Source: Candidatus Harrisonbacteria bacterium
GTDB lineage: Bacteria > Patescibacteriota > Minisyncoccia > UBA6257 > 02-FULL-45-10c
Assembly (NCBI GenBank): GCA_016214655.1
Contig: JACROC010000005.1
Span: forward strand, 67,078 to 131,077
Direction of reading: 5' to 3'
Length of the DNA: 64,000 bases
Shown: piece after piece, positions 37,300-60,590 of the stretch
How positions within the stretch are numbered: position 1 is the first letter of the stretch
Layout of the letters: each line of letters begins with the position of its first letter
Program-made: the position numbers and the translations under genes
The notes under the pieces: generated by a model
The model's database searches: none
What the model was told of the DNA's origin: nothing
The model's input: the letters and a program-made list of their open reading frames with translations, nothing else

Positions 37300-38448
37300 C
37301 TACTCTTTAGGAGTAAAATATTTTTTACCTTTCAGTTTTTCCGGCAGAAGTTCGTCCTTGGTATATTTTTCATATCCCTTTCCGTATCCCAAATTTTTCA
37401 TCAGTTTAGTGGGTGCGTTCCTGATTTTCATCGGCACCGGAAGATTGCCCAATTTCTCCGCATCCTCCATCGCCAGCAGATATGCTTCATAAGCGCTCCT
37501 GTCTTTTTTGGCAAGCGACAGATAAACCACCCCGTGCGCGAGGTTAATGCCGCATTCAGGCATACCAATGATATCCACTGCCTGAAATACTTCATTAGCA
37601 ACTACCAGCGCCGTTGGCTGAGCCATCCCGATATCTTCGCTGGCAAATATCACCATGCGCCGGGCAACAAACTTCGGATCTTCTCCGGCTTTCAGCATCC
37701 GGGACAGATAATAAAGCGCCGCATCCGGCTGGCTAGCCCGCATGCTTTTAATGAATGCACTGATGAGATTGTAGTGCTCCTCGCCTTTTTTATCATAACG
37801 CAAAAATTTAGACTGGAGAGTATTTTTCAGATTCTTGAGATTAATCTTTTTATATAGTCCGTAAGTATTTTCCAGCATGGCAATCGCCTGCCGGGCATCG
37901 CCATTAGCCATCGCCACCAGCCATTCCACGGATTCTTTATCCATCGGATAACCGGCCCGCTTGATTATCTTTTCCATATCCGCCGCCGGCAATTCATTAA
38001 GCACAAAAACCCGGCACCTGGAAAGCAAAGCCGGAATCACTTCAAAGCTCGGATTTTCAGTAGTCGCGCCGATCAGCGTCAGTTCGCCGCGCTCCACAAA
38101 AGGCAACAGAAAATCCTGCTGGGCTTTATTGAAGCGGTGAATTTCATCCAAAAATAAAACTTTCGGCTTGCCCCGCACCGAACCCATAAAACCATCCTCA
38201 ATAATGCGCCGGATATCATCCTTACCGGCCGAAACCGCAGAAAGCTCATACATCTCCGCATCCAGGCTTTTGGCATAAATTCTCGCTAAAGTTGTTTTGC
38301 CGCATCCCGGCGGACCCCAAAGGATAAAAGAAAAAAGATGCTTCTTTTCAATGGCAGTCCTAAGCGGACCACCCTTGCCGGCCAAATGTTCCTGGCCGAT
38401 AAAATCCTTTAAGGTTAAAGGCCGTATTTTTGAAGCCAATGGTTCCAT
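37300..38448 (-). CDS. rarA: replication-associated recombination protein A (RarA/MgsA AAA+ ATPase)
   Basis: [15 protein letters not shown] Walker [16 protein letters not shown] Walker B and sensor regions, plus a C-terminal MgsA domain. Confidence 0.85.
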
Positions 38449-38514
38449 GCTAATAAAATAAAACTGCTATCAGAATTTGCATTATGCATTTTTTGCACAT
38501 TGCTTTTTATTCAA

Positions 38515-39174
38515 TTAATTAAGAAAGCTCGGCTTTTTAATGACCTGAACTACCTTCCCGTTGATCATAAAATTATCATTCGGGTGGATATAGATCGGCG
38601 GAAAATCTTTGGTAGATTCAGACATCAGCACCACCTGGTTATTATTTTTATCCAGATAAAATTTCTTGATGTTCGCCATGCCATCAATAATGGAAAGCAC
38701 AATGTCTCCGGTTTTGACGTTCTTATCGTCTACATTCACAACCACATAATCCCCGTCTTCAATATTTTTCCCGCCGATTTTCGCCCGGTTCATACTGGGA
38801 CCGACTACTTTCAGGGCAAAAAGACGGCTCTCCTTAGCTTTTGCCGGCGCAAGCAATGAACTGGAAATCCTTAAAAATCCTTCAATATTAGTTTCGGCAA
38901 AAATCGTCGCTGGTCCGGCATTTACCGATCCTAAAATAGGAATAGTAAGGAGCTTGCCGTTGCCGGACATAGTTTCCCATTCCTGCCTGATTTTCTTGAT
39001 CATTCCCTTAGCTTTATTAATTTTAATAAGCCCCTTAGCTTGGAGCTGTAAAAGATGATGTTTAACTTTCTGCGGAGAATCCACTCCGATAAACGACCCT
39101 ATTTCTCTCAAGGTATGCTGGCCCAAGTTTTTCTCCTGGGCGACTTTTAATAATTGTTCTTGTATTTTATGCAT
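38515..39174 (-). CDS. lexA: LexA repressor (HTH plus S24 peptidase)
   Basis: N-terminal winged HTH. Cleavage-site-like NAGP. Catalytic Ser in VVGPSM and Lys in a KVVQVIKK-type C-terminus. Confidence 0.75.
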   Translation of the reverse strand: MHKIQEQLLKVAQEKNLGQHTLREIGSFIGVDSPQKVKHHLLQLQAKGLIKINKAKGMIKKIRQEWETMSGNGKLLTIPILGSVNAGPATIFAETNIEGFLRISSSLLAPAKAKESRLFALKVVGPSMNRAKIGGKNIEDGDYVVVNVDDKNVKTGDIVLSIIDGMANIKKFYLDKNNNQVVLMSESTKDFPPIYIHPNDNFMINGKVVQVIKKPSFLN

Positions 39175-39182
39175 ACCCGGTG

Positions 39183-39446
39183 CTACAACTTCGATTGGTA
39201 ATAGATTTTAAGCCGTTTAGCTAAAAACCTGCGACCTCTCGTAGTTTTTAAATATTCTTCGCGCCTTTCCGCGTCTTGTTGATTGACGCAAGCTTCAAAA
39301 TAAATAAGTTTCATAGGTAATCGTGGTTTAGTAGAAAATGATTTACCTTGATTATGTTCTTCTATCCTGCGCTTCAAATTATTGGTGTAACCGACATACC
39401 TTTGCTTATCATATAAACTTTCTAATACGCAAACGTAGAAGAACAT
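39183..39446 (-). CDS. GIY-YIG nuclease family protein (UPF0213)
   Basis: MFFYVCVLESLYDKQRYVGYTNNLKRRIEEHN. Start moved to the internal Met matching the family N-terminus. Lies immediately upstream of lexA, probably as an operon. Confidence 0.7.
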   Translation of the reverse strand: MFFYVCVLESLYDKQRYVGYTNNLKRRIEEHNQGKSFSTKPRLPMKLIYFEACVNQQDAERREEYLKTTRGRRFLAKRLKIYYQSKL

Positions 39447-39604
39447 AATCGAAGTTGTAGCACCGGGCATATTCTTATTATAGCATATTAGTTATGTAAA
39501 AGTACAACCCAGTTGACAGAGTTGACAAGATTTTAAAGAATATAAGGGTGTTGTTGGGATAAAAACTTATAAAACTCCCGCGGAAGGGAAATTTATTATT
39601 CTAA

Positions 39605-40003
39605 TTAAAAATTTAAAAAGAAGATTGCTAACTGCAGTACCGTTGCAAATGCGCCCCAGAAAAGATACGGCAAAAGCAAAACAAAAATCAATTTTGAATA
39701 TTGCCAAATTCTGTATTCAAAAAATGCCAAAGTCCCTAAAATTATTAAAATATCGATTGATGCCGGCCAAAGCGGCCTTAACCCTAGCTGAATTGGGGTG
39801 AATAAAAGATTGGCAGCCAGATTAGCAAGAAAAATCCACAGTAAATTTTTCGGCGCTTCTTTCCTATAAACTAAATAAATCAAATATATTCCCGCGGCCG
39901 CGATCAGCGGATAGATAATCCCCCACGCCAGCCCAAACACCCGTTCCGGCGGAGAAAAAAATGGCTTTTGAATATTCTGATAGAATTCTTGATAAGTTCT
40001 CAC
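39605..40003 (-). CDS. TspO/MBR family (tryptophan-rich sensory protein-like) membrane protein
   Basis: Five TM helices with conserved Trp/Pro positions (GLAWGIIYPLIA, LFTPIQLGLRPLWPA). Confidence 0.65.
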   Translation of the reverse strand: MRTYQEFYQNIQKPFFSPPERVFGLAWGIIYPLIAAAGIYLIYLVYRKEAPKNLLWIFLANLAANLLFTPIQLGLRPLWPASIDILIILGTLAFFEYRIWQYSKLIFVLLLPYLFWGAFATVLQLAIFFLNF

Positions 40004-40080
40004 ATTTTTATTCTACCATACTAAATTCCCGCGGAAGGCAAATTTAGAAACAAAAAACCGCCTAGTTAATCAGGCGGTTA

Positions 40081-40836
40081 TTATTTTTTAGACAAACTCC
40101 AGACAAGAGCAGTGGCATTATCTTCCAAGCCCCGATCCTCTGCCCACTTCATAACATCTTGAGCTGTTGAGCGCCGCATCGCGCATTCTTTGATTTCTTC
40201 AAGAAGCTTGCCGGTGTTGTGATGTCCCGGATCAAAAACTCCATCCGATGCGACCAACACCCACTCTGGATTATGAATCGTATAAATGTCCGGTTCACGC
40301 GAAAGGACTTTGCCGAGATAAGAATCGCCTAAAGCCCGGCTCATTTGCAAACCACGGACTAAAGCACTTAAGTCGGTCCAGATATATCCATCCGCATATA
40401 TTCCGCCGCGCTGTTCCGCCGCTTTCCGCTCTTTAAGATTGGAACGGACATTATGTTCCGGGCTTACATTAAGATTCCCCTCTTGATCCAATACCACTAC
40501 CGGAGAATCACCGAGAACCGCAACCGAAACCCCGGGAATACCATCCAACAGCAGCGCGGCTGAAAAAGTTGAACCCTCACTATAAGCTTCGGTTTGGCTG
40601 TTCAAATCGGCAACCAAGCAGCGCAGGGATTCTTCTGCCTGGCTTTCATCTGTGATCTGAAATAAATCTTTGATTTTTTCCGCGCAAAGTTCCGCAACCG
40701 CTTTCCCGACATGGCCATCCATCACCGCAAGCAGCCAACCTTTTAAATCAGGCTTATCAATCCGCAAGCGGACATATCTGTCTTCCTGATGACTCCTTGG
40801 GCCTTGCCTGATCTCAACACTAACAATGCCTTTCAT
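40081..40836 (-). CDS. PP2C-family serine/threonine phosphatase
   Basis: RSHQEDRY, AVMDGHVG and VASDGVFD metal-binding motifs. Confidence 0.75.
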   Translation of the reverse strand: MKGIVSVEIRQGPRSHQEDRYVRLRIDKPDLKGWLLAVMDGHVGKAVAELCAEKIKDLFQITDESQAEESLRCLVADLNSQTEAYSEGSTFSAALLLDGIPGVSVAVLGDSPVVVLDQEGNLNVSPEHNVRSNLKERKAAEQRGGIYADGYIWTDLSALVRGLQMSRALGDSYLGKVLSREPDIYTIHNPEWVLVASDGVFDPGHHNTGKLLEEIKECAMRRSTAQDVMKWAEDRGLEDNATALVWSLSKK

Positions 40837-40980
40837 TATTCACCCCTCAATAATGCTGATAACAAAATAACTTATCGCGAATCACTCCGTCAATACTCAA
40901 AACTCCTCTGAAAATCAAATTTTATTTTTTTATTATTGCGCCACGACACCGCGGTGTAGTGACGGGCATGTGATATAATG

Positions 40981-41181
40981 CTAAACCAATCTATACTTTT
41001 CATTTCTATAAACTACCCTAACTTTTCTCGTATCTATCTCAATCCATTTTTGGTCCAGCTTATTTTTATAATCCTCTTTCTTTATATAACAATGACCCCA
41101 AATTTTAACTTGGTTTTTCTTATTTTTATCGAAATAAATTTCGGCTAATTTGTTATTTACAATCGCGAAACTCCAGGACAT
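40981..41181 (-). CDS. small protein downstream of XRE regulator (possible toxin partner)
   Basis: 66 aa, basic. Preceded by a repeated operator/promoter cassette identical to the one upstream of 42078..42929. Confidence 0.4.
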   Translation of the reverse strand: MSWSFAIVNNKLAEIYFDKNKKNQVKIWGHCYIKKEDYKNKLDQKWIEIDTRKVRVVYRNEKYRLV

Positions 41182-41263
41182 ATGTTTATTTTATCACAAA
41201 ACAGAGCCACGAGGCGCTGTTTTGATTTTTTACCTCCCGCGGAAGAGAAATTTTATATAAATT

Positions 41264-41566
41264 CTAAACTAAAGAAATTTTCAATTTCCCCTTGAGTGAA
41301 TTAGCGATTTTATTTAGTTTATCCGCTGTAACGTTCTGCTCTCCGCTTTCAATTCTAGCAATCTCGCTCTGAGTGGTTTGCATTTTTTTAGCTAATTCTT
41401 TTTGAGTTAAACCCCTTTTCTTTCTTGCGGAATAAATTTCGTAGCCAAGCGCAAGTCTGTGAAACCTCTCATCGGCTTTCGCCCGAGCTTTTTTAGTTGG
41501 ATATTGCTCTTTTAAAATATCTTCAAAAGAGCGGAATTTAATTTTTGTATTTTGGTTTTTTGTCAT
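41264..41566 (-). CDS. XRE-family helix-turn-helix transcriptional regulator
   Basis: RKKRGLTQKELAKKMQTTQSEIARIESGEQNVTADKLNKIANSL is a canonical Cro/C1-type HTH. Confidence 0.75.
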   Translation of the reverse strand: MTKNQNTKIKFRSFEDILKEQYPTKKARAKADERFHRLALGYEIYSARKKRGLTQKELAKKMQTTQSEIARIESGEQNVTADKLNKIANSLKGKLKISLV

Positions 41567-41680
41567 TATTTTATTTAAATAAAAATAGCATATATGCTAT
41601 ATTTGTCAATGGTGGTTTGTGAATAACTACCCCACTACACCGCGGTGTAGTGACGTGGTAAGTAAAATTAAAGTAAAAAT

Positions 41681-42073
41681 TTATAATTTTACTTCTTTGA
41701 TTTCAATCTGCGATCTACCTTTTCCTTCCTCTTTTGGCTTTTGAAAATTTATAAGTAAACCAATTTTTATTTTGAGAATTCTCATATAATTTTTGATTTG
41801 TTGCTCCTCAGACGCCCCAAGCTCACTACCAACCGCTTTCAACTCCAGAACTACCCTATCCTTCCCGAAACTTACAATTATATCCGGATATCCTTCGCCG
41901 ACATAATGATCTTTGTATTTAAGCTCAACTACTTTTTGATTTTCATATCTGATTTTCGCCAACCTTAAACCAACCTGCATGGCTTTATCATATACATCTT
42001 CCGAAAAACCGGAGCCTAAGGAGCGGTAAACATCCCTGGCGATTTTTTTGATTTTATTCAATTTGTTTTGCAT
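41681..42073 (-). CDS. GxxExxY protein (PD-(D/E)XK nuclease-like)
   Basis: GEGYPDIIV...LELKAV matches the GxxExxY signature. Start taken at MQNKLNKI, 4 nt after the upstream stop. Confidence 0.65.
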   Translation of the reverse strand: MQNKLNKIKKIARDVYRSLGSGFSEDVYDKAMQVGLRLAKIRYENQKVVELKYKDHYVGEGYPDIIVSFGKDRVVLELKAVGSELGASEEQQIKNYMRILKIKIGLLINFQKPKEEGKGRSQIEIKEVKL

Positions 42074-42077
42074 AAGT

Positions 42078-42929
42078 TTATTTTCTCTTATTTTCATCTA
42101 AAGTCTTCCCATTTTTATCTTCCCACTGAGTCCATCCATTTACAGATCTTCCCATGATAACATCTCCAGCAGCGCTCGGACTTCTAAAAATGTGGTCCTT
42201 TGTAAAAATAAAAGATTTGTCATTTTCTTTTTTTAAAACACCGTCATTCTGAAGTTTTTGACGAAGATTTCGGCTGCTCATAGGAAGTCCTCTCCTCTCA
42301 GCTATGCGAACCAATGAACCTTTATAAACCACAAATTCTCCATTCTCAAGTAATAAGCCAGAGCCCCTTGCATCTTTATTTTTTTTATCCTCACAAAAAT
42401 ATTTTTCTTCTGTATCTTTTTTAAGATCGTGAATATCTTGAAATAAAGTAAATCCTAAAAAATTTAAAATAAATTGAATTTTACTAAAAAGTTCATCATT
42501 AACAATCCTTTTGTGTTCTGAAAGCCTGGCTTCTTCTGGTTCTGGTTTTGTTTTATTTTCAATATCATAACGATCTACATGCTTTGCTAATTTTATAGAC
42601 TTACTTTCAAGATATTTTATATCGGCGCTATCTAAATTTTTATTAGTAATTATAACCCCAGTCTCCCAAAATTCTTTTTCTGCGTCATGATTACTAAGTC
42701 TTTGATAAAATTTTTCTGATTGTCCAATATAAACAATCTGTCTTGAAGGATCTTCTCCGGCGCCAAAAAGGAAATAAACTCCTGCCTGATTAACTTCTGA
42801 TCGCTTTCCAAGATCTTTTAATTTATTCCGCGGAACCACAAATACCTCACTATTAAAATTAGCGAGATCAATTATTTTAATTCCGTTTGGATTATCATCA
42901 GGAAGTAATATTGTTATAACTTGCGCCAT
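42078..42929 (-). CDS. GIY-YIG nuclease domain protein with C-terminal DUF4357-like domain
   Basis: N-terminal GVYFLFGAGEDPSRQIVYIGQSE...RLSNHD GIY-YIG core. C-terminal region resembles the DUF4357 domain found on such nucleases. Confidence 0.6.
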   Translation of the reverse strand: MAQVITILLPDDNPNGIKIIDLANFNSEVFVVPRNKLKDLGKRSEVNQAGVYFLFGAGEDPSRQIVYIGQSEKFYQRLSNHDAEKEFWETGVIITNKNLDSADIKYLESKSIKLAKHVDRYDIENKTKPEPEEARLSEHKRIVNDELFSKIQFILNFLGFTLFQDIHDLKKDTEEKYFCEDKKNKDARGSGLLLENGEFVVYKGSLVRIAERRGLPMSSRNLRQKLQNDGVLKKENDKSFIFTKDHIFRSPSAAGDVIMGRSVNGWTQWEDKNGKTLDENKRK

Positions 42930-43318
42930 ATATTTATTTTATCACAAAACAGCGCCACAAGGCGCTGTTTTAATTTTTTGACTCCCGCGGAAGGGAATTT
43001 TTATTTAACTTCTTAATAAACAACCTGCTTAAGCAGACACCCTCGCAAAAAGAAATAAAGTAATTACTTACCTTTAATCTAATGATCCCAAACCCTTATC
43101 GCTATAAGAAAAACCTTAACCGAGAAGAATGCCACAAGATGCATCGCGTAAAACCATATTTCATCAAACATCTGTATTCCCCATATCTTATATGAAATCC
43201 AGAATACCAAAGAATGAAAAACTAAATAAGTTAAACTCCCAATGAATCGATTAGAGTTTGGAGATAAACCATTTGAAGATCTATAATGATGCTGGAATTT
43301 TATCATTTACATACTATC

Positions 43319-43678
43319 TTATTTAATTAAACTGGCTTCAAGTAATTTACCCGTAACAGAATTTATTCTTTCGTAAATCACAAAAACTTTACTTTTAGCC
43401 ATTCCAATATTTTCTATCTTTTTATCAAAATGAACGATATCGTTTCTGTATTCTTGTATGAAATTTCGCAAATAAGTAATATCAATTTTTATACTCTCCC
43501 CTAGTTTCTTTTCAAAAATTGGTGCTAAAAAATTTCCATTGCCACAAGCAGGCTCAAGAAAGCGAGATTCGATTCTCTCTGTCTCATTTTTAACCAAATC
43601 TAACATTGCATCCACCTCTCGTTCCCGGGTGAATACTTCGCCATGATCCTTAACTCTTTGTTTAGACTTTATTTGCAT
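43319..43678 (-). pseudogene. N-terminal fragment of an N6-adenine DNA methyltransferase (Eco57I-like), truncated
   Basis: VFTREREVDAMLDLV...LEPACGNGNFL holds motif X and motif I only. No NPPY motif IV. Followed by an unrelated small ORF, so the gene is decayed. Confidence 0.5.
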
Positions 43679-43924
43679 AATATTTTATTTAAAAAATCTC
43701 GCTGTCGGCACGCCGAGGGCTTTAGTGATTCTTTTGACGGTATAAAAAGTCGAGTTCGGTGTTGCCCTAGCTTCAATTTTAGCGTCAATAAATACATCTT
43801 AAAGTGCTTATAAAATTTTTGTTCCTTGGGTATAATTTATACATAAATTATACATCAAATTAATTCTTAATAAGAATCAACAAAAGTTAATAACAGGGTT
43901 CACCTAGCTAGGCGAATCTTGAAA

Positions 43925-44104
43925 AAACTAAACCTATCTGTCGTACGGCAACTACGGAAGCGCCAAAAGCTAGGAACCGCAGCCCCGACGATATGTCGGG
44001 GCTTTTTGCGATAGCAAAACCAGGTTTTTGGCGCTGAGACGTAGGAGCCGTCCCGCGCTGGACGGGACGGACTCCGGTGCCGGTAGACAAATAGGTTTAG
44101 TTTT
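43925..44104 (+). ncRNA. GC-rich structured RNA, paralog A of an unassigned family
   Basis: 5' AACTAAACCTATCTG pairs with 3' CAAATAGGTTTAGTT. Conserved cores GTCGTACGGCAACTACGGA and CCGGTGCCGGTAG are shared with paralog B. Internal hairpins GCGCCAAAAG..TTTTGGCGC and CCGTCCC..GGACGGG. The track ORF 43908..44090 is spurious. Confidence 0.45.
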
Positions 44105-44162
44105 AAAGAGGTTTAAAAATCAAAAAGAGGCCTTATGGCCTCAAATTATCTTAGCTCGGCTA

Positions 44163-44459
44163 TTAAGCCGTCTTAAATTCAGGATATAACTGCACATCAT
44201 TTTCTAGATTCCGGATTCTCTTTATTAAACTCTTGTGCACGTATATTTCTGGAGTTCTAGGCGCGGGAGACTTAAATAAAAATATATCATTGCTTATGCT
44301 GCAGTTAATCCAGACTTCAAAATCTGGGCGGAGCACAATCAGATTATTTTTTAAATCCCAGCTATCCAGGTCCCCAAGGTCAAATACCGCTCCCCCGGGA
44401 GATACGCCGTGCGGAGTCATGTGCAACTGCTCGGTAAATACAACCTCCAACATGTCCAA
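44163..44459 (-). CDS. hypothetical protein
   Basis: 98 aa, downstream of fic. A hairpin plus T-run terminator follows on the minus strand (44115-44140). Confidence 0.4.
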   Translation of the reverse strand: MDMLEVVFTEQLHMTPHGVSPGGAVFDLGDLDSWDLKNNLIVLRPDFEVWINCSISNDIFLFKSPAPRTPEIYVHKSLIKRIRNLENDVQLYPEFKTA

Positions 44460-44538
44460 TCCCTTTATAAAAAGTTCTGAAAAGAGTATATCAATAAGTT
44501 TTTACAAGGTCAAAGATGAGATACTATATTGCCGTCAA

Positions 44539-45420
44539 CTAAATACCGATTTTCCAAATATTCTTTTCTAAAAAAGCCTCAATGGTCTGCCGACTGGCCT
44601 TATTGATAAGATTTGAATGAGAGAGTTTATTATTCTTCGCGTATTCGGTTAAGGTAATAATTTTTTTACCCTCTAAATATGCCAACCGTTTATAATAACT
44701 ATTCGTAAGCGCCCTGCCTACTATCTCCTCCATAATGGCAGTTTTGCCTTTTTCATCAAATTCTTTAAACGCTTCGTAATATTTAACCCTATCAATAAAT
44801 TTTATATTTATCGGAACAAAACCTTCCCGGATCAATAAATAGTTATTTATAACTCTTCCAATGCGGCCATTGCCATCAATAAACGGATGGGTATGCTCAA
44901 ATGTAAGATGCAATAACGCAATGCGTTTTATAATATTTTCATGGCTGCTTGCGTTATATTCTGCAAGCATTTTTTCTAATCGTTCTATTATTTCTTTTGG
45001 CGCCGGAGCGATGTGGCTACCGACACGAACACGCTCGTCACCTTTTCTAAATCTTCCGGCTATATCGTCACGGATGTTAGAAATAAGCATTTTGTGAAGT
45101 GACAACATGACGTCCAACGTCAATTCTTGTTCTTTAGCTCTTTTATCTATGTACGACACCACTCGCGCAAGATTTTTTGCTTCAAAAATCTCGCGTTCAC
45201 TGATAAATCGGTCCAAGTCAATCTGGAGAAGTATCTTTTCCGTCTCCTCAAGCGTGAGAGTACTATTCTCAATGGCGTTTGAGTTATATACCTGTTCAGC
45301 GACCTCAGCCTCAGAGACAAGTTTAATAAGCGCATTTTTACCAACAGATGCTTTGTAGTATCTCTCGCGAAGAGAATGTATCTTATTAAATACGCCAGAT
45401 ATTTTTGTCATATATAACAA
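44539..45420 (-). CDS. fic: Fic/DOC family protein (AMPylase-type motif)
   Basis: HPFIDGNGRIGR matches the HPFx(D/E)GNGRxxR Fic motif. Confidence 0.8.
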   Translation of the reverse strand: MLYMTKISGVFNKIHSLRERYYKASVGKNALIKLVSEAEVAEQVYNSNAIENSTLTLEETEKILLQIDLDRFISEREIFEAKNLARVVSYIDKRAKEQELTLDVMLSLHKMLISNIRDDIAGRFRKGDERVRVGSHIAPAPKEIIERLEKMLAEYNASSHENIIKRIALLHLTFEHTHPFIDGNGRIGRVINNYLLIREGFVPINIKFIDRVKYYEAFKEFDEKGKTAIMEEIVGRALTNSYYKRLAYLEGKKIITLTEYAKNNKLSHSNLINKASRQTIEAFLEKNIWKIGI

Positions 45421-45430
45421 TTATAGCCAC

Positions 45431-45528
45431 TTTCACGGTTTTGTCAATATAACCGTGAAAATACCTGTTTTTTCCTATATTTACACGGTTTTGGATCGTT
45501 CTATATTCAATTGTCAAGTAATTGACAA
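45431..45528. promoter_or_regulatory. inverted-repeat operators in the fic promoter region
   Basis: TTTCACGGTT-N10-AACCGTGAAA (45431-45460) and TTGTCAA-gtaa-TTGACAA (45511-45528), upstream of the minus-strand fic start. Confidence 0.45.
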
Positions 45529-46125
45529 CTAACGTACAGAATATTTTTTTCGATTCCAAAAACAATGTTCCATATGGTCATTCACCATCCCGGTTGCCTG
45601 CATATGGGCGTACAAAGTCGTTGGACCGAGAAATTTGAAGCCACGGTTCTTCAGATCTTTTGACCACGTAATAGCCTCATCGCTCACCGCCTTATAGTCG
45701 CTCATTTTCGCCACCTTATTGATAATCGGACGATTATCTACAAACCCCCACATATATTTTGAGAAGGTGCCAAATTCTTTTTTAACTTCCAAAAACCGGG
45801 CGGCGTTGTTGATGGCCGCTTCTATCTTTAATCGGTTCCGCACAATTCCGGCATCCTGCATCAGGCGGTTAAAATCTTTTTTAGTAAACCTGGCTACCCG
45901 CACCGGATCAAAACCCGCAAAAGCCTTCCGGAAGTTTTTCCTTTTATTAAGAATCGTCCTCCAGCTCAAACCGGCCTGGAAACTCTCCAGGCACAAAAAT
46001 TCAAATATCTTTTTATCATCATGAAGCGGAACGCCCCATTCCTTATCGTGATATTCTTTCATTAAGAAATCCTGCTCCAATACCCACTTGCACCGCCCTA
46101 GTGTTTTATTTATTGTCCGTACCAT
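45529..46125 (-). CDS. tag: DNA-3-methyladenine glycosylase I
   Basis: RCKWV...YHDKEWGVP...FEFLCLESFQAGLSW aligns with the E. coli Tag N-terminus. C-terminal zinc ligands HMEHC. Confidence 0.85.
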   Translation of the reverse strand: MVRTINKTLGRCKWVLEQDFLMKEYHDKEWGVPLHDDKKIFEFLCLESFQAGLSWRTILNKRKNFRKAFAGFDPVRVARFTKKDFNRLMQDAGIVRNRLKIEAAINNAARFLEVKKEFGTFSKYMWGFVDNRPIINKVAKMSDYKAVSDEAITWSKDLKNRGFKFLGPTTLYAHMQATGMVNDHMEHCFWNRKKYSVR

Positions 46126-47352: not shown

Positions 47353-47438
47353 ATAATAGTCCAGAAAATTTAAAATTGCAAGCGGGAAAATAAAAATTCC
47401 CTGTTAATCCTGGGAATTTTTATTAGGTATAGATTGTT

Positions 47439-60423: not shown

Positions 60424-60447
60424 TAAATAACTGCTGGGTTCCATTGA

Positions 60448-60590
60448 GAGATCTGCCTGTCTGTCGTGCGGCAATTACGGAGCCCTGAAATGCTTGGATT
60501 TTTGCGAAGCAAAAAATTTCAGGGCGAGGCATAGGCGGCACCGACCGCAGGAGTCGGTGAACGCCGGTGCCGGTAGGCAGATAGGCTGAG
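60448..60590 (+). ncRNA. GC-rich structured RNA, paralog B, immediately 5' of tgt
   Basis: CCTGTCTGTCGTGCGGCAATTACGGAGCC ... CCGGTGCCGGTAGGCAGATAGG. Closing helix CCTGTCTG/CAGATAGG. Internal hairpins GCCCTGAAAT..ATTTCAGGGC and CACCGAC..GTCGGTG. Confidence 0.45.

What the first reader, a model, noticed from the sequence alone, without database searches (positions are those of the whole stretch)
39576..42997. Four-copy motif CTCCCGCGGAAGGGAAATTT in the island's intergenic regions
- TCCCGCGGAAGG(G/C/A)A occurs at 39576-39589, 40027-40040, 41235-41248 and 42984-42997.
- Each copy lies upstream, in minus-strand transcription direction, of a gene start: the GIY-YIG-lexA operon, tspO-like, the small TA-like gene, and the GIY-YIG/DUF4357 gene.
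- The motif holds a TCCC/GGGA inverted repeat around a CCGCGG palindrome. It could be a transcription-factor site, possibly for the adjacent LexA or the XRE regulator, or a short RNA hairpin.
- I did not see it elsewhere in the window.
Basis: seen in the sequence. Interest (0 to 1): 0.6.

Follow-up and report, generated by a model that had tools for sequence, protein, structure and literature searches.

The report
Gene-boundary repeat of a CPR bacterium
Four copies of a 20-25-base sequence lie between genes in a variable stretch of an uncultivated Harrisonbacteria genome; they are this genome's own version of a short repeat that related genomes carry just after stop codons, and they more likely mark the joints between gene units than serve as a LexA or XRE binding site.

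Summary
Four same-strand copies of CTCCCGCGGAAGGGAAATTT (0-2 mismatches) lie in non-coding DNA within 3.4 kb, and there are none elsewhere in the 64 kb. The named interpretations fail. Relatives keep the lexA promoter without the motif. The XRE gene has a different palindrome in its own promoter. The TCCC/GGGA hairpin is weak and is not kept in related copies.

The main new result is that related Paceibacteria contigs carry the same element in another 'dialect', AAAWTT-SCCTTTC-YK-GAAAATTT. All copies are in gene orientation, and most of those with a called upstream gene lie 4-18 nt after its stop codon. They cluster in variable gene neighbourhoods. One copy sits at the orthologous place behind TspO.

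Homology between genomes ends at the element, or in one case inside it. All four window copies share one invariant 11-nt centre, while their arms vary.

My best reading, at about 0.37 confidence, is a protein-recognised DNA junction site of shuffled gene units, cassette-like. No recombinase gene was found among the window ORFs scanned, and no mobility is shown. The rivals are an operator of an unidentified regulator, a selfish or neutral dispersed repeat, and a weak terminator. The element has not been described before and is of moderate interest.

The parts
39572..39596 (-). Copy W1: ATAAATTTCCCTTCCGCGGGAGTTT, written in gene sense. Its core starts 16 nt after the TspO stop codon (39605) and lies about 100 nt upstream of the small GIY-YIG/lexA start.
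   Evidence: 25.2 bits. It is at the orthologous position to L054 copy 496-520 behind a 77%-identical TspO. It is the only copy followed by a U-run, and the scan flagged it as terminator-like.
40023..40047 (-). Copy W2: CTAAATTTGCCTTCCGCGGGAATTT. It starts right after the T-run of the PP2C terminator and lies 10 nt upstream of the extended -10 of TspO.
   Evidence: 24.4 bits. Homology of three relatives' PP2C loci ends at the terminator T-run, where W2 begins.
41231..41255 (-). Copy W3: TAAAATTTCTCTTCCGCGGGAGGTA. Its core starts 16 nt after the XRE stop codon (41264). It is followed by a hairpin and by the promoter of the 66-aa gene.
   Evidence: 18.1 bits. It is part of the 90-nt repeat D1.
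42979..43003 (-). Copy W4: TAAAAATTCCCTTCCGCGGGAGTCA. It lies upstream of the GIY-YIG/DUF4357 (PDC-S14) gene and 21 nt after the hairpin at 43023-43038.
   Evidence: 21.3 bits. It is part of the 90-nt repeat D1.
41179..41268 (-). 90-nt intergenic module, copy A. It holds the motif W3, the hairpin AAAACAGCGCC-N4-GGCTCTGTTTT (41199-41224), the extended -10 TGATAAAAT (41188-41196) and the ATG. Similarity ends exactly at the start codon.
   Evidence: D1, 88% identity to 42927-43016; sequence.
42927..43016 (-). 90-nt intergenic module, copy B. It holds the motif W4, the hairpin at 42946-42971, the extended -10 TGATAAAAT (42936-42944) and the ATG of the 283-aa gene.
   Evidence: terminator-like hairpin with 11 pairs; sequence.
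40056..40079 (-). Canonical intrinsic terminator of PP2C, conserved in relatives. W2 begins 10 nt after its stem.
40010..40018 (-). Extended -10 (TGGTAGAAT) of TspO, with the GTG start 7 nt downstream (leaderless layout). The same layout occurs at 39477-39485 (TGCTATAAT, GIY-YIG/lexA).
   Evidence: Sequence; upstream-region table. The TAGAAT is conserved before the L054 TspO.
47392..47421 (-). Possible hairpin-type relative: AAAAATTCCC-N10-GGGAATTTTT, about 18 nt after the stop codon of the RRM-protein gene. Its arms equal the W4 left arm and the W2 right arm, and it looks like an ordinary terminator.
   Evidence: 11.3 bits, E = 0.04. A comparable A-tract/CCCC/GGGG/T-tract terminator follows the RRM gene in L045.

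Best explanation
The four copies are this genome's 'dialect' of a short, strand-specific intergenic repeat shared by related Paceibacteria/Harrisonbacteria. The family consensus, written in gene sense, is AAAWTT-SCC-TTYC-NN-GRRA-RTTT. It is a 12-bp imperfect dyad, CTTYC-NN-GRRAG, with an extra SC on its left side and A/T-rich arms. The element sits at the 3' edge of gene units, usually 4-18 nt after a stop codon, in variable gene neighbourhoods.

I think it most likely acts as double-stranded DNA: a protein-recognised junction site at which gene units (one to three genes with their own promoters) are joined, exchanged or homogenised by recombination. This would be comparable in role to integron attC sites or Xer-dependent dif-module sites. 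The asymmetric, genome-specific centre (TTCCGCGGG here) would be the part that must match between partner sites.

Shown:
- the family exists, with its orientation, position and clustering;
- the centre is invariant among the four window copies;
- homology breakpoints fall at or inside the element.

Inferred:
- that a protein binds it;
- that recombination occurs there;
- which enzyme acts.
For: (1) Family. The element occurs in relatives at L047 8639, L053 223/1104/1430/4060, L054 496/1357, L055 471 and viral contig L057 717. All are non-coding, and all eight on contigs with called genes share the orientation of the flanking genes. A weight matrix built from the relatives alone ranks W1 and W2 second and fourth among about 128,000 window positions.

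(2) Orthology. A 132-aa TspO, 77% identical, is followed in both genomes by the element at the same place, and the alignment ends right after it.

(3) Position. In 7 of the 10 copies with a called upstream gene on the same strand, the core starts 4-18 nt after the stop codon (gene tables). Distances to the next start codon are spread more widely, 12-105 nt.

(4) Clustering in variable regions. There are 4 copies in 3.4 kb and none in the other 60 kb of the window, 4 clear copies in the first 4.1 kb of L053, 2 in the 3.5 kb of L054, and none in L034's 20 kb of core genes. The genes between copies differ between genomes. In the window they include candidate defence genes.

(5) Breakpoints. PP2C homology ends at the terminator, where W2 starts. 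Relative to L047 (GreA-PP2C adjacent), L053 has 2.7 kb inserted. The two sequences diverge inside the element, after the left arm AAAAATTCYCC, and an AAAAATT...CC stretch recurs at the right end of the insert.

(6) Pattern of conservation. In the window the central 11 nt are identical in all four copies while both arms vary. The dyad column pair 14/19 is T-A in all 9 relatives and C-G in all 4 window copies. That is what sites that must match each other, or one co-evolving protein, would show.

(7) No stable RNA structure at family level, and no Rfam family.
Against: No recombinase, integrase or transposase gene was found among the roughly 40 window ORFs scanned, which include every ORF of 40 aa or more examined within about 8 kb of the copies and all window ORFs of 300-400 aa. 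No circular or empty/filled pair shows mobility directly, and the L047/L053 comparison is a single case in A/T-rich DNA.

Some units between copies hold lineage-conserved genes with their own conserved promoter and terminator, such as PP2C and GreA. The L054 TspO unit has no copy within 90 nt of its 5' side.

Intergenic DNA is where rearrangement breakpoints fall anyway. The family rests on 13 members from about 155 kb, sampled around two genes (lexA, PP2C). The rest of the 271-kb contig could not be read.

The W1-versus-L054 similarity (11 of 17 core positions) is near what orthologous spacer DNA might keep without selection.
Confidence: 0.37

Rival explanations
1. It is the operator of an unidentified DNA-binding regulator, neither LexA nor the adjacent XRE. 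This regulator would control the leaderless promoters that follow each copy, with the dialect reflecting co-evolution of protein and site.
For: Every window copy lies upstream of an extended -10/leaderless promoter. The 90-nt module D1 is conserved from the motif to exactly the start codon, which is the transcription start of a leaderless gene, in front of two unrelated genes. A 76-nt module in L047 and L053 likewise runs from the motif to an ATG. Seven of 12 copies end 35-59 nt before the next start codon. The core is an imperfect dyad kept across the family, with 87.7% of cells paired, and no shuffle reached that value. Three relatives carry TAGAAT at a fixed offset.
Against: The distance from motif to -10 is 10, 40, 40 and 92 nt in the window, and it also varies in relatives. 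All copies share one orientation with the genes, which a symmetric operator does not need. The position is tied more tightly to the upstream stop codon. The genes downstream of the copies form no recognisable regulon. The half-sites lie only 7 bp apart, which is unusual for helix-turn-helix dimers (own knowledge).
Confidence: 0.22
2. It is a selfish or neutral dispersed short repeat, REP- or MITE-like, or locally copied and homogenised spacer DNA with no function of its own.
For: The element is intergenic and close to gene 3' ends. It has genome-specific sequence types, and two subtypes occur within one genome (L053: TTTCTGG and TTTCCTG). W3 and W4 are no better conserved than their 90-nt flanks: 2 differences in 20 nt against 88% overall. 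The same region holds a second, palindromic repeat family and a small GIY-YIG ORF bracketed by 24-nt inverted repeats, so small repeats do spread here.
Against: There is no stable hairpin, no GTAG signature and no terminal inverted repeats. The 23-nt sequence AAAATTCCCTTTCCTGAAAATTT is identical at two L053 sites, and L055 differs by a single extra A, while the flanks are unrelated. Boundaries are sharp, and W1 and W2 share nothing beyond about 25 nt with W3 and W4. Neutral copying of only 25 nt to four junctions needs a mechanism of its own.
Confidence: 0.18
3. It is a weak intrinsic terminator or RNA 3'-end hairpin that closes the upstream transcription unit.
For: The copies are in sense orientation a few nucleotides after stop codons. 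W1 is AUAAAUUUCCC-UUCCGC-GGGAGUUUUAU followed by a U-rich run, folds to -9.1 kcal/mol and was flagged as terminator-like. Ordinary terminators of this lineage have the same build of A-tract, YCCC, loop, GGGR and T-tract. The G-to-A change in copy 3 keeps a G-U pair only on the gene-sense RNA.
Against: W2, W3 and W4 lack a U-run and sit next to strong canonical terminators. Fold energies are within about 2 sd of shuffles. The commonest type in relatives folds to about 0 kcal/mol. The TCCC/GGGA pairs are absent in 9 of 13 family members. The conserved inner dyad leaves a 2-nt loop. The element is absent behind the other roughly 70 genes of the window.
Confidence: 0.1
4. It is an operator for the adjacent LexA or for the XRE protein.
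For: Proximity only. Copy 1 is 92 nt upstream of the lexA operon's -10, and the XRE gene lies between copies 3 and 4.
Against: Relatives keep the lexA promoter and its conserved tandem TTGTCAAS element without the motif, and no motif occurs in their lexA loci. The XRE promoter has its own 16-bp perfect palindrome overlapping the spacer and the -10 (41585-41600). Family members occur in relatives' loci that have no LexA or XRE gene nearby.
Confidence: 0.04

Closest known systems
Integron attC sites and cassette arrays
   Same: Direct, co-oriented repeats lie right after the stop codons of one- to few-gene units in a variable array. Site sequences are homogeneous within a genome and differ between genomes. 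The units are mostly accessory genes.
   Different: The element is 25 nt rather than 55-140 nt. It has no R''/L''-L'/R' imperfect hairpin and no RYYYAAC...GTTRRRY ends, and it is recognised, if at all, by sequence rather than by folded structure. No intI or attI was found in the window. Units carry their own promoters and include lineage-conserved genes.
Xer-dependent dif modules (pdif sites) of Acinetobacter plasmids (PMC6449649, PMC13141974)
   Same: Short sites of about 28 bp, with two arms around a 6-bp asymmetric centre, bound small modules of 1-3 accessory genes that are shuffled between replicons. The recombinase is encoded elsewhere.
   Different: There is no similarity to the conserved XerD arm (TTATGTTAAAT type). 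All copies here are in direct orientation, whereas pdif sites alternate. The element is chromosomal, in a CPR genome. Xer involvement is untested.
REP/BIME elements with RAYT transposases
   Same: Short intergenic repeats near gene 3' ends, with orientation bias, species-specific families and several subtypes per genome.
   Different: There is no stable palindrome and no GTAG head. Only 4 copies occur in 64 kb, all within 3.4 kb, and no RAYT gene was seen. A different, truly palindromic family in the same region (CACTACACCGCGGTGTAGTG) is more REP-like.
Intrinsic terminators of the same lineage (for example behind the RRM-protein gene)
   Same: A-tract, YCCC, loop, GGGR, T-tract, a few nucleotides after a stop codon. 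The arms are identical to those of W4 and W2.
   Different: The four copies share an identical loop. Three lack a U-run and duplicate a neighbouring strong terminator. Related copies in other genomes do not fold.
LexA (SOS) boxes and C-protein/XRE operators
   Same: A short dyad-containing sequence near promoters of DNA-damage or defence-type genes.
   Different: The element is not in the conserved part of the lexA promoter, is absent from relatives' lexA promoters, is not upstream of the XRE gene, lies at variable distance from the -10 elements, and is strictly co-oriented with the genes.

Membership tests
LexA operator (SOS box) | Present in, and overlapping, the lexA promoter, and conserved there in related genomes | tested here: not met
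   Homology with the closest relative's lexA promoter ends at 39533, whereas the motif is at 39575-39594. L040, L043, L045 and L034 lack it.
LexA operator (SOS box) | Found upstream of other SOS genes (recA, uvrA and the like) across the genome | not testable with these tools
   Only 64 kb of the genome is readable. No further copy occurs in the window, and the source contig is not on record for look-ups.
XRE / controller-protein operator | A dyad overlapping the regulator's own promoter (autoregulation) | tested here: not met
   The XRE promoter holds a different perfect palindrome, ATAGCATATATGCTAT (41585-41600), between TTGACA and TATTTT. The motif lies 10 nt downstream of the XRE stop codon.
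Intrinsic (Rho-independent) terminator | A stable G+C-rich stem-loop followed directly by a U-run | tested here: not met
   Only W1 has a U-run. Fold energies are -5 to -9.1 kcal/mol with z-scores of -0.6 to -2.2. Relatives' copies fold to 0 to -5 kcal/mol.
Structured RNA motif (any Rfam family, or a conserved hairpin) | A match to a covariance model, or base pairs kept across homologues | tested here: not met
   No Rfam match at E<=1 in 38400-45600 or in L053-L055. TCCC/GGGA is paired in 63.5% of cells, no better than shuffles. The inner 5-bp dyad is kept (87.7%) but leaves a 2-nt loop.
REP/BIME | A 20-40-nt imperfect palindrome with a GTAG head, in many copies genome-wide, with an associated RAYT gene | tested here: not met
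   There is no GTAG and no stable palindrome. The 4 copies are confined to 3.4 kb. No Y1-transposase domain appeared among the roughly 40 window ORFs scanned. The genome-wide copy number could not be tested.
Integron attC | A 55-140-nt imperfect inverted repeat with RYYYAAC ... GTTRRRY ends, and an intI gene with attI next to the array | tested here: not met
   Read directly from the sequence, no such core sites flank the copies. No tyrosine recombinase was found in the window ORFs scanned. A dedicated attC model (IntegronFinder) could not be run.
Xer dif / pdif module site | A 28-bp site with a conserved XerD arm and 6-bp centre, and sites in alternating orientation around modules | tested here: not met
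   No TTATGTWAA-type arm is in or next to the element, and all copies are direct. Binding by the organism's Xer proteins is not testable here.
DNA uptake sequence (DUS/USS) | About one copy per kb genome-wide, in both orientations, enriched in core genes | tested here: not met
   There are 4 copies in 64 kb, all in one 3.4-kb variable stretch and all on one strand.
The new family proposed here (stop-codon-proximal boundary repeat of Paceibacteria) | Fits AAAWTT-SCCTTYC-NN-GRRARTTT, is non-coding, is in gene sense, and lies shortly after a stop codon | tested here: met
   The ungapped 31-column alignment has 75% mean identity. W1 and W2 rank 2nd and 4th under a matrix built from relatives only, although W3 and W4 score below 7 bits there. 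W1 is orthologous to the L054 copy. All four hits reach E<=2.4e-4 with model R1, which includes them.

The most novel reading that the evidence does not exclude
Patescibacteria (CPR) may carry an undescribed cassette-like gene-shuffling system. Gene units with their own leaderless promoters would be bounded by a 25-bp site with A/T arms and a genome-specific asymmetric centre, and exchanged by a recombinase or structure-specific nuclease encoded elsewhere. One candidate is the SLX1/UPF0213-type small GIY-YIG protein, which in this window is itself a mobile-looking mini-gene bracketed by 24-nt inverted repeats. This would give these tiny genomes an integron- or dif-module-like way to turn over accessory and defence genes.
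Probability: 0.2. Interest if true: 0.8.

Novelty: new variant of a known kind. Interest (0 to 1): 0.5.

Why it matters
CPR/Patescibacteria have very small genomes, few regulators and rapidly changing gene order, and almost nothing is known about their non-coding signals. A short, strand-specific element that sits at gene-unit boundaries, recurs in the variable neighbourhoods of several related genomes and changes its centre in concert within a genome is a concrete handle on how these organisms gain, lose or insulate accessory and defence genes. If it is a recombination site, it would be a new cassette system outside the integron and Xer paradigms. If it is a regulatory or termination signal, it would be among the first lineage-specific cis-elements defined for this group. 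Either way it can be tested directly with public metagenomes (structural variants bounded by the element) and metatranscriptomes.

Tried and rejected
- **Exact-pattern scans.** YTCCCGCGGAAGRSAAWTTT gave 19 hits in 185,579 species genomes, 14 in JGI metagenomes and none in IMG/VR. All are single, mostly coding hits in unrelated taxa, about what chance predicts. This dialect is therefore essentially private to this genome.
- **Source contig.** Window proteins are not on record for contig look-up, so I could not read the rest of the 271-kb contig.
- **Homologue of the 283-aa GIY-YIG/DUF4357 gene.** The closest one with context (54% identical, L046) has no motif.
- **Phage origin.** There is no DNA similarity to GenBank phages.
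- **Viral scans with the relatives' dialects.** They gave one intergenic copy (L057/L059). The other hits were coding or did not score as family members.
- **Sigma-70 promoter reading.** TTGCCT in copy 2 is 20 nt from TAGAAT, and no common -35/-10 geometry holds across the copies.
- **attC, dif, sigma-54, sigma-28, CodY-box, boxA/nut and Hin/Gin hix resemblances.** I considered these from memory. None fits beyond a few bases, and none is claimed.
- **CCGCGG as a restriction target.** GIY-YIG enzymes Eco29kI and Cfr42I cut CCGCGG (own knowledge). However, CCGCGG is not avoided in the window (27 observed, 24.8 expected), and the 283-aa protein has no PDB sequence match. I dropped this link.
- **Literature.** A search for the sequences themselves found only unrelated primers.

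Full report
**The observation**

The 20-mer CTCCCGCGGAAGGGAAATTT occurs four times on the + strand, at 39575-39594, 40026-40045, 41234-41253 and 42982-43001, with 0, 2, 1 and 1 mismatches. Nothing else in the 64 kb matches at up to 3 mismatches, and none of 100 dinucleotide-preserving shuffles gave four matches.

The 11-mer TCCCGCGGAAG is invariant. All four copies are in non-coding DNA, although about 89% of the window is ORF. Four random sites would fall within 3.4 kb with P = 6e-4. CCGCGG as such is unremarkable: 27 observed against 24.8 expected.

**Local anatomy**

All genes here are on the minus strand. The order in gene direction is as follows.

- Fragment of an MmeI-like methyltransferase, a 75-aa ORF and a hairpin.
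- **W4**, a hairpin, the extended -10 TGATAAAAT, then the ATG of the GIY-YIG/DUF4357 gene. That gene matches PADLOC PDC-S14 at E = 2.6e-86. A PD-(D/E)XK gene follows, then a 20-bp palindrome.
- The XRE gene with its own promoter.
- **W3**, whose core starts 16 nt after the XRE stop codon. It is followed by a hairpin, an extended -10 and the ATG of a 66-aa gene. That ORF is a real family, with 178 representatives. The second copy of the palindrome follows.
- PP2C with its own promoter, Shine-Dalgarno sequence and canonical terminator.
- **W2**, the extended -10 TGGTAGAAT, then the GTG of TspO.
- **W1**, whose core starts 16 nt after the TspO stop codon, then about 90 nt and TGCTATAAT.
- The ATG of a 95-aa GIY-YIG gene, then lexA and rarA.

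In all four downstream genes the start codon begins 7 nt after the -10. This leaderless layout is common across the window.

W3 and W4 belong to a 90-nt repeat, 88% identical, that runs from about 15 nt before the motif to exactly the start codon of two unrelated genes. W1 and W2 share only about 25 nt with them.

LexA. The window comes from a Candidatus Harrisonbacteria MAG, because proteins 100% identical to window ORFs are named so by NCBI. The closest lexA relative, L040 (LexA 94%, DNA 86%), has lexA-rarA and the same promoter. It has neither the small GIY-YIG gene nor the motif, and homology stops at 39533. The lexA promoters of relatives share CTTGTCAAS-YTTGTCMAC and ATATGCTATAAT, not the motif. 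About 35 kb of non-redundant lexA loci of relatives hold no copy.

XRE. Its promoter holds a perfect 16-bp palindrome, ATAGCATATATGCTAT (41585-41600), across the spacer and the -10. That is the usual place for an autoregulatory operator.

RNA hairpin. The motif folds weakly as RNA, at -5 to -9.1 kcal/mol with z-scores of -0.6 to -2.2. No Rfam family matches.

**Search for the motif elsewhere**

Exact-pattern scans of species genomes, JGI metagenomes and IMG/VR gave only single, chance-like hits in unrelated organisms. This precise sequence is therefore private to this genome.

**The family**

Contigs carrying close PP2C homologues (74-79% identical) hold a related element: AAAWTT-SCCTTTC-YK-GAAAATTT. 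It occurs at L047 8639, L053 223, 1104, 1430 and 4060, L054 496 and 1357, L055 471, and on a viral contig at L057 717.

An ungapped alignment with the four window copies has 75% mean column identity. Conserved columns lie in the A/T left arm, CC, TT, C, G, A and TTT.

A weight matrix made from the relatives alone ranks W1 and W2 second and fourth of about 128,000 window positions. W3 and W4 score low on it. A sequence-only covariance model finds exactly the 12 clear members in the window and the relatives' contigs searched (L057 was not among them). It also finds a truncated copy at L047 9324 and a hairpin-type relative at window 47392-47421, and nothing else of note in about 140 kb.

The strongest single argument for homology is TspO. 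The window and L054 encode 132-aa TspO proteins that are 77% identical. In both, the stop codon is followed by an A-rich spacer and the element, and the alignment breaks off right after it.

**Properties of the family**

- All members are non-coding, and every copy on a contig with called genes has the orientation of the flanking genes.
- In 7 of the 10 copies with a called upstream gene on the same strand, the core starts 4-18 nt after the stop codon. Distances to the next start codon range from 12 to 105 nt (gene tables).
- Copies cluster in variable neighbourhoods. There are four clear copies in the first 4.1 kb of L053, two in the 3.5 kb of L054, four in 3.4 kb of the window, none in the other 60 kb of the window and none in L034's 20 kb.
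- The genes between copies differ between genomes.
- The family has no stable RNA fold. Seven copies from relatives give 0 to -5 kcal/mol with z-scores from -1.9 to +1.3, six of them above -1.
- What is kept is a 5+5-bp dyad, CTTYC-NN-GRRAG, with 87.7% of cells paired. One column pair is T-A in all nine relatives and C-G in all four window copies. This probably reflects one event, so it is weak as covariation. The 2-nt centre rules out an ordinary RNA hairpin.

**Breakpoints and concerted change**

PP2C, with its promoter and terminator, is conserved in four genomes. The similarity ends at the terminator's T-run, and in the window the next base starts W2.

L047 has GreA directly before PP2C, while L053 has 2.7 kb (DUF5654 and a PhoD-like gene) between them. 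The two sequences run together through TAA-gtcagcc..AAAAATTCYCC and part inside the element. An AAAAATT..CC stretch recurs at the right end of the insert, just before the PP2C -35.

A 76-nt module that begins with the element is 87% identical between L047 and L053 in unrelated contexts. Their orthologous coding DNA is 77-83% identical.

In the window the centre TTCCGCGGG is identical in all four copies, although the arms differ. L053 carries two centres, TTTCTGG and TTTCCTG.

**Interpretation**

The data show a lineage-wide, sequence-defined, strand-specific boundary element, of which the finding is one genome's dialect. Its function is inferred.

I rank a protein-recognised DNA junction site of shuffled gene units first, at about 0.37. 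This reading fits five things together:
- the lack of structure;
- the restriction to variable arrays;
- the stop-codon-proximal, co-oriented placement (as with attC);
- the breakpoints at or inside the element;
- the invariant centre with variable arms.

Against it:
- no recombinase was found among the roughly 40 window ORFs scanned;
- some units hold conserved genes;
- mobility is not shown;
- the sample is small and was gathered around two genes.

The rivals are as follows.

| Rival reading | Confidence | Main support |
|---|---|---|
| Operator of an unidentified regulator | 0.22 | Conserved promoter modules that end at the start codon |
| Selfish or neutral dispersed repeat | 0.18 | Genome-specific types; other small repeats spread in this region |
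| Weak terminator | 0.10 | Plausible for W1 only; ordinary terminators here have the same arms |
| LexA or XRE operator | 0.04 | Proximity only |

**Comparison with known systems**

The element fails the defining features I could test for LexA boxes, C-protein/XRE operators, intrinsic terminators, Rfam families, REP/BIME, attC, dif/pdif and uptake sequences (see the membership table). In role it is closest to attC or to the pdif sites of Acinetobacter dif modules (PMC6449649, PMC13141974), but it is a member of neither. The sequences do not appear in the held literature.

I rate it a new variant of a known kind, short dispersed boundary or junction repeats, of moderate interest. Interest would be high if recombination at the site were shown.

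Noticed in passing
window 39173-39470 (minus strand): The 95-aa GIY-YIG ORF (UPF0213/SLX1-like) is bracketed exactly by a 24-nt inverted repeat, 96% complementary: ATGCCCGGTGCTACAACTTCGATT ... AATCGAAGTTGTAGCACCGGGT-ATG. It sits between the leaderless lexA promoter and lexA's ATG. The closest relative, L040, has the same promoter joined directly to lexA without this ORF. It looks like a mobile mini-gene that lands on a leaderless start codon and regenerates an ATG for the host gene.
   Followed up: partly
window 40941-40960 and 41633-41652; L053 1372-1395: A second repeat family is a 20-bp palindrome, CACTACACCGCGGTGTAGTG (perfect in one copy, one mismatch in the other). It lies downstream of the 66-aa and PD-(D/E)XK genes. 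L053 has GGTGCTACACCTAGGTGTAGCACC, with the same arms but centre CCTAGG. The inverted repeat around the small GIY-YIG ORF shares CCGGTGCTACA with it. In this genome both repeat families have CCGCGG at their centre, which I cannot explain.
   Followed up: partly
window 43915-44112 and about 60445-60590: Two paralogous G+C-rich stretches without ORFs share a long closing stem (CCTRTCTGTCGTRCGGCA ... TGCCGGTAGRCARATAGG). The first folds to -100.1 kcal/mol with z = -10.2. The second lies directly upstream of a gene I read as tgt from its sequence, which is followed by a queuosine-salvage gene. There are no Rfam matches. They are candidates for an unknown structured RNA or riboswitch.
   Followed up: partly
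window 39512-39529; L040, L043, L045 upstream of lexA: A tandem CTTGTCAAC-TCTGTCAAC element about 30 nt upstream of the lexA -10 is conserved in relatives as CTTGTCAAS-YTTGTCMAC. It is a better candidate for this lineage's LexA operator, or a doubled -35, than the motif.
   Followed up: partly
window 41585-41600: A perfect 16-bp palindrome, ATAGCATATATGCTAT, lies between the -35 TTGACA and the -10 TATTTT of the XRE gene's promoter. It is a likely autoregulatory operator.
   Followed up: no
window-wide, e.g. 39477-39485, 40010-40018, 41188-41196, 42936-42944, upstream of 8626 and 26482: Many genes have an extended -10 (TGnTAnAAT) that ends 6 nt before the start codon and no Shine-Dalgarno sequence. 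This implies leaderless mRNAs. Other genes in the same window have strong AGGAGG sites.
   Followed up: partly
window 42078-45420: This stretch looks like the remains of a defence neighbourhood. It holds a GIY-YIG/DUF4357 protein (PADLOC PDC-S14, E = 2.6e-86), a 119-aa N-terminal fragment of an MmeI-type methyltransferase (43319-43678) and a Fic protein matching SoFic/PDC-S04.
   Followed up: partly
L047 5936-7477: A 513-aa protein combines a LexA DNA-binding domain, an S24 peptidase and an N6/N4 DNA methyltransferase. It is encoded near the PP2C locus of a relative.
   Followed up: no
window 40981-41181: The 66-aa ORF with no Pfam match belongs to a widespread family of small proteins of 65-110 aa. 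It has 178 cluster representatives at E<=0.001 and 69 at E<=1e-10. Its function is unknown.
   Followed up: partly
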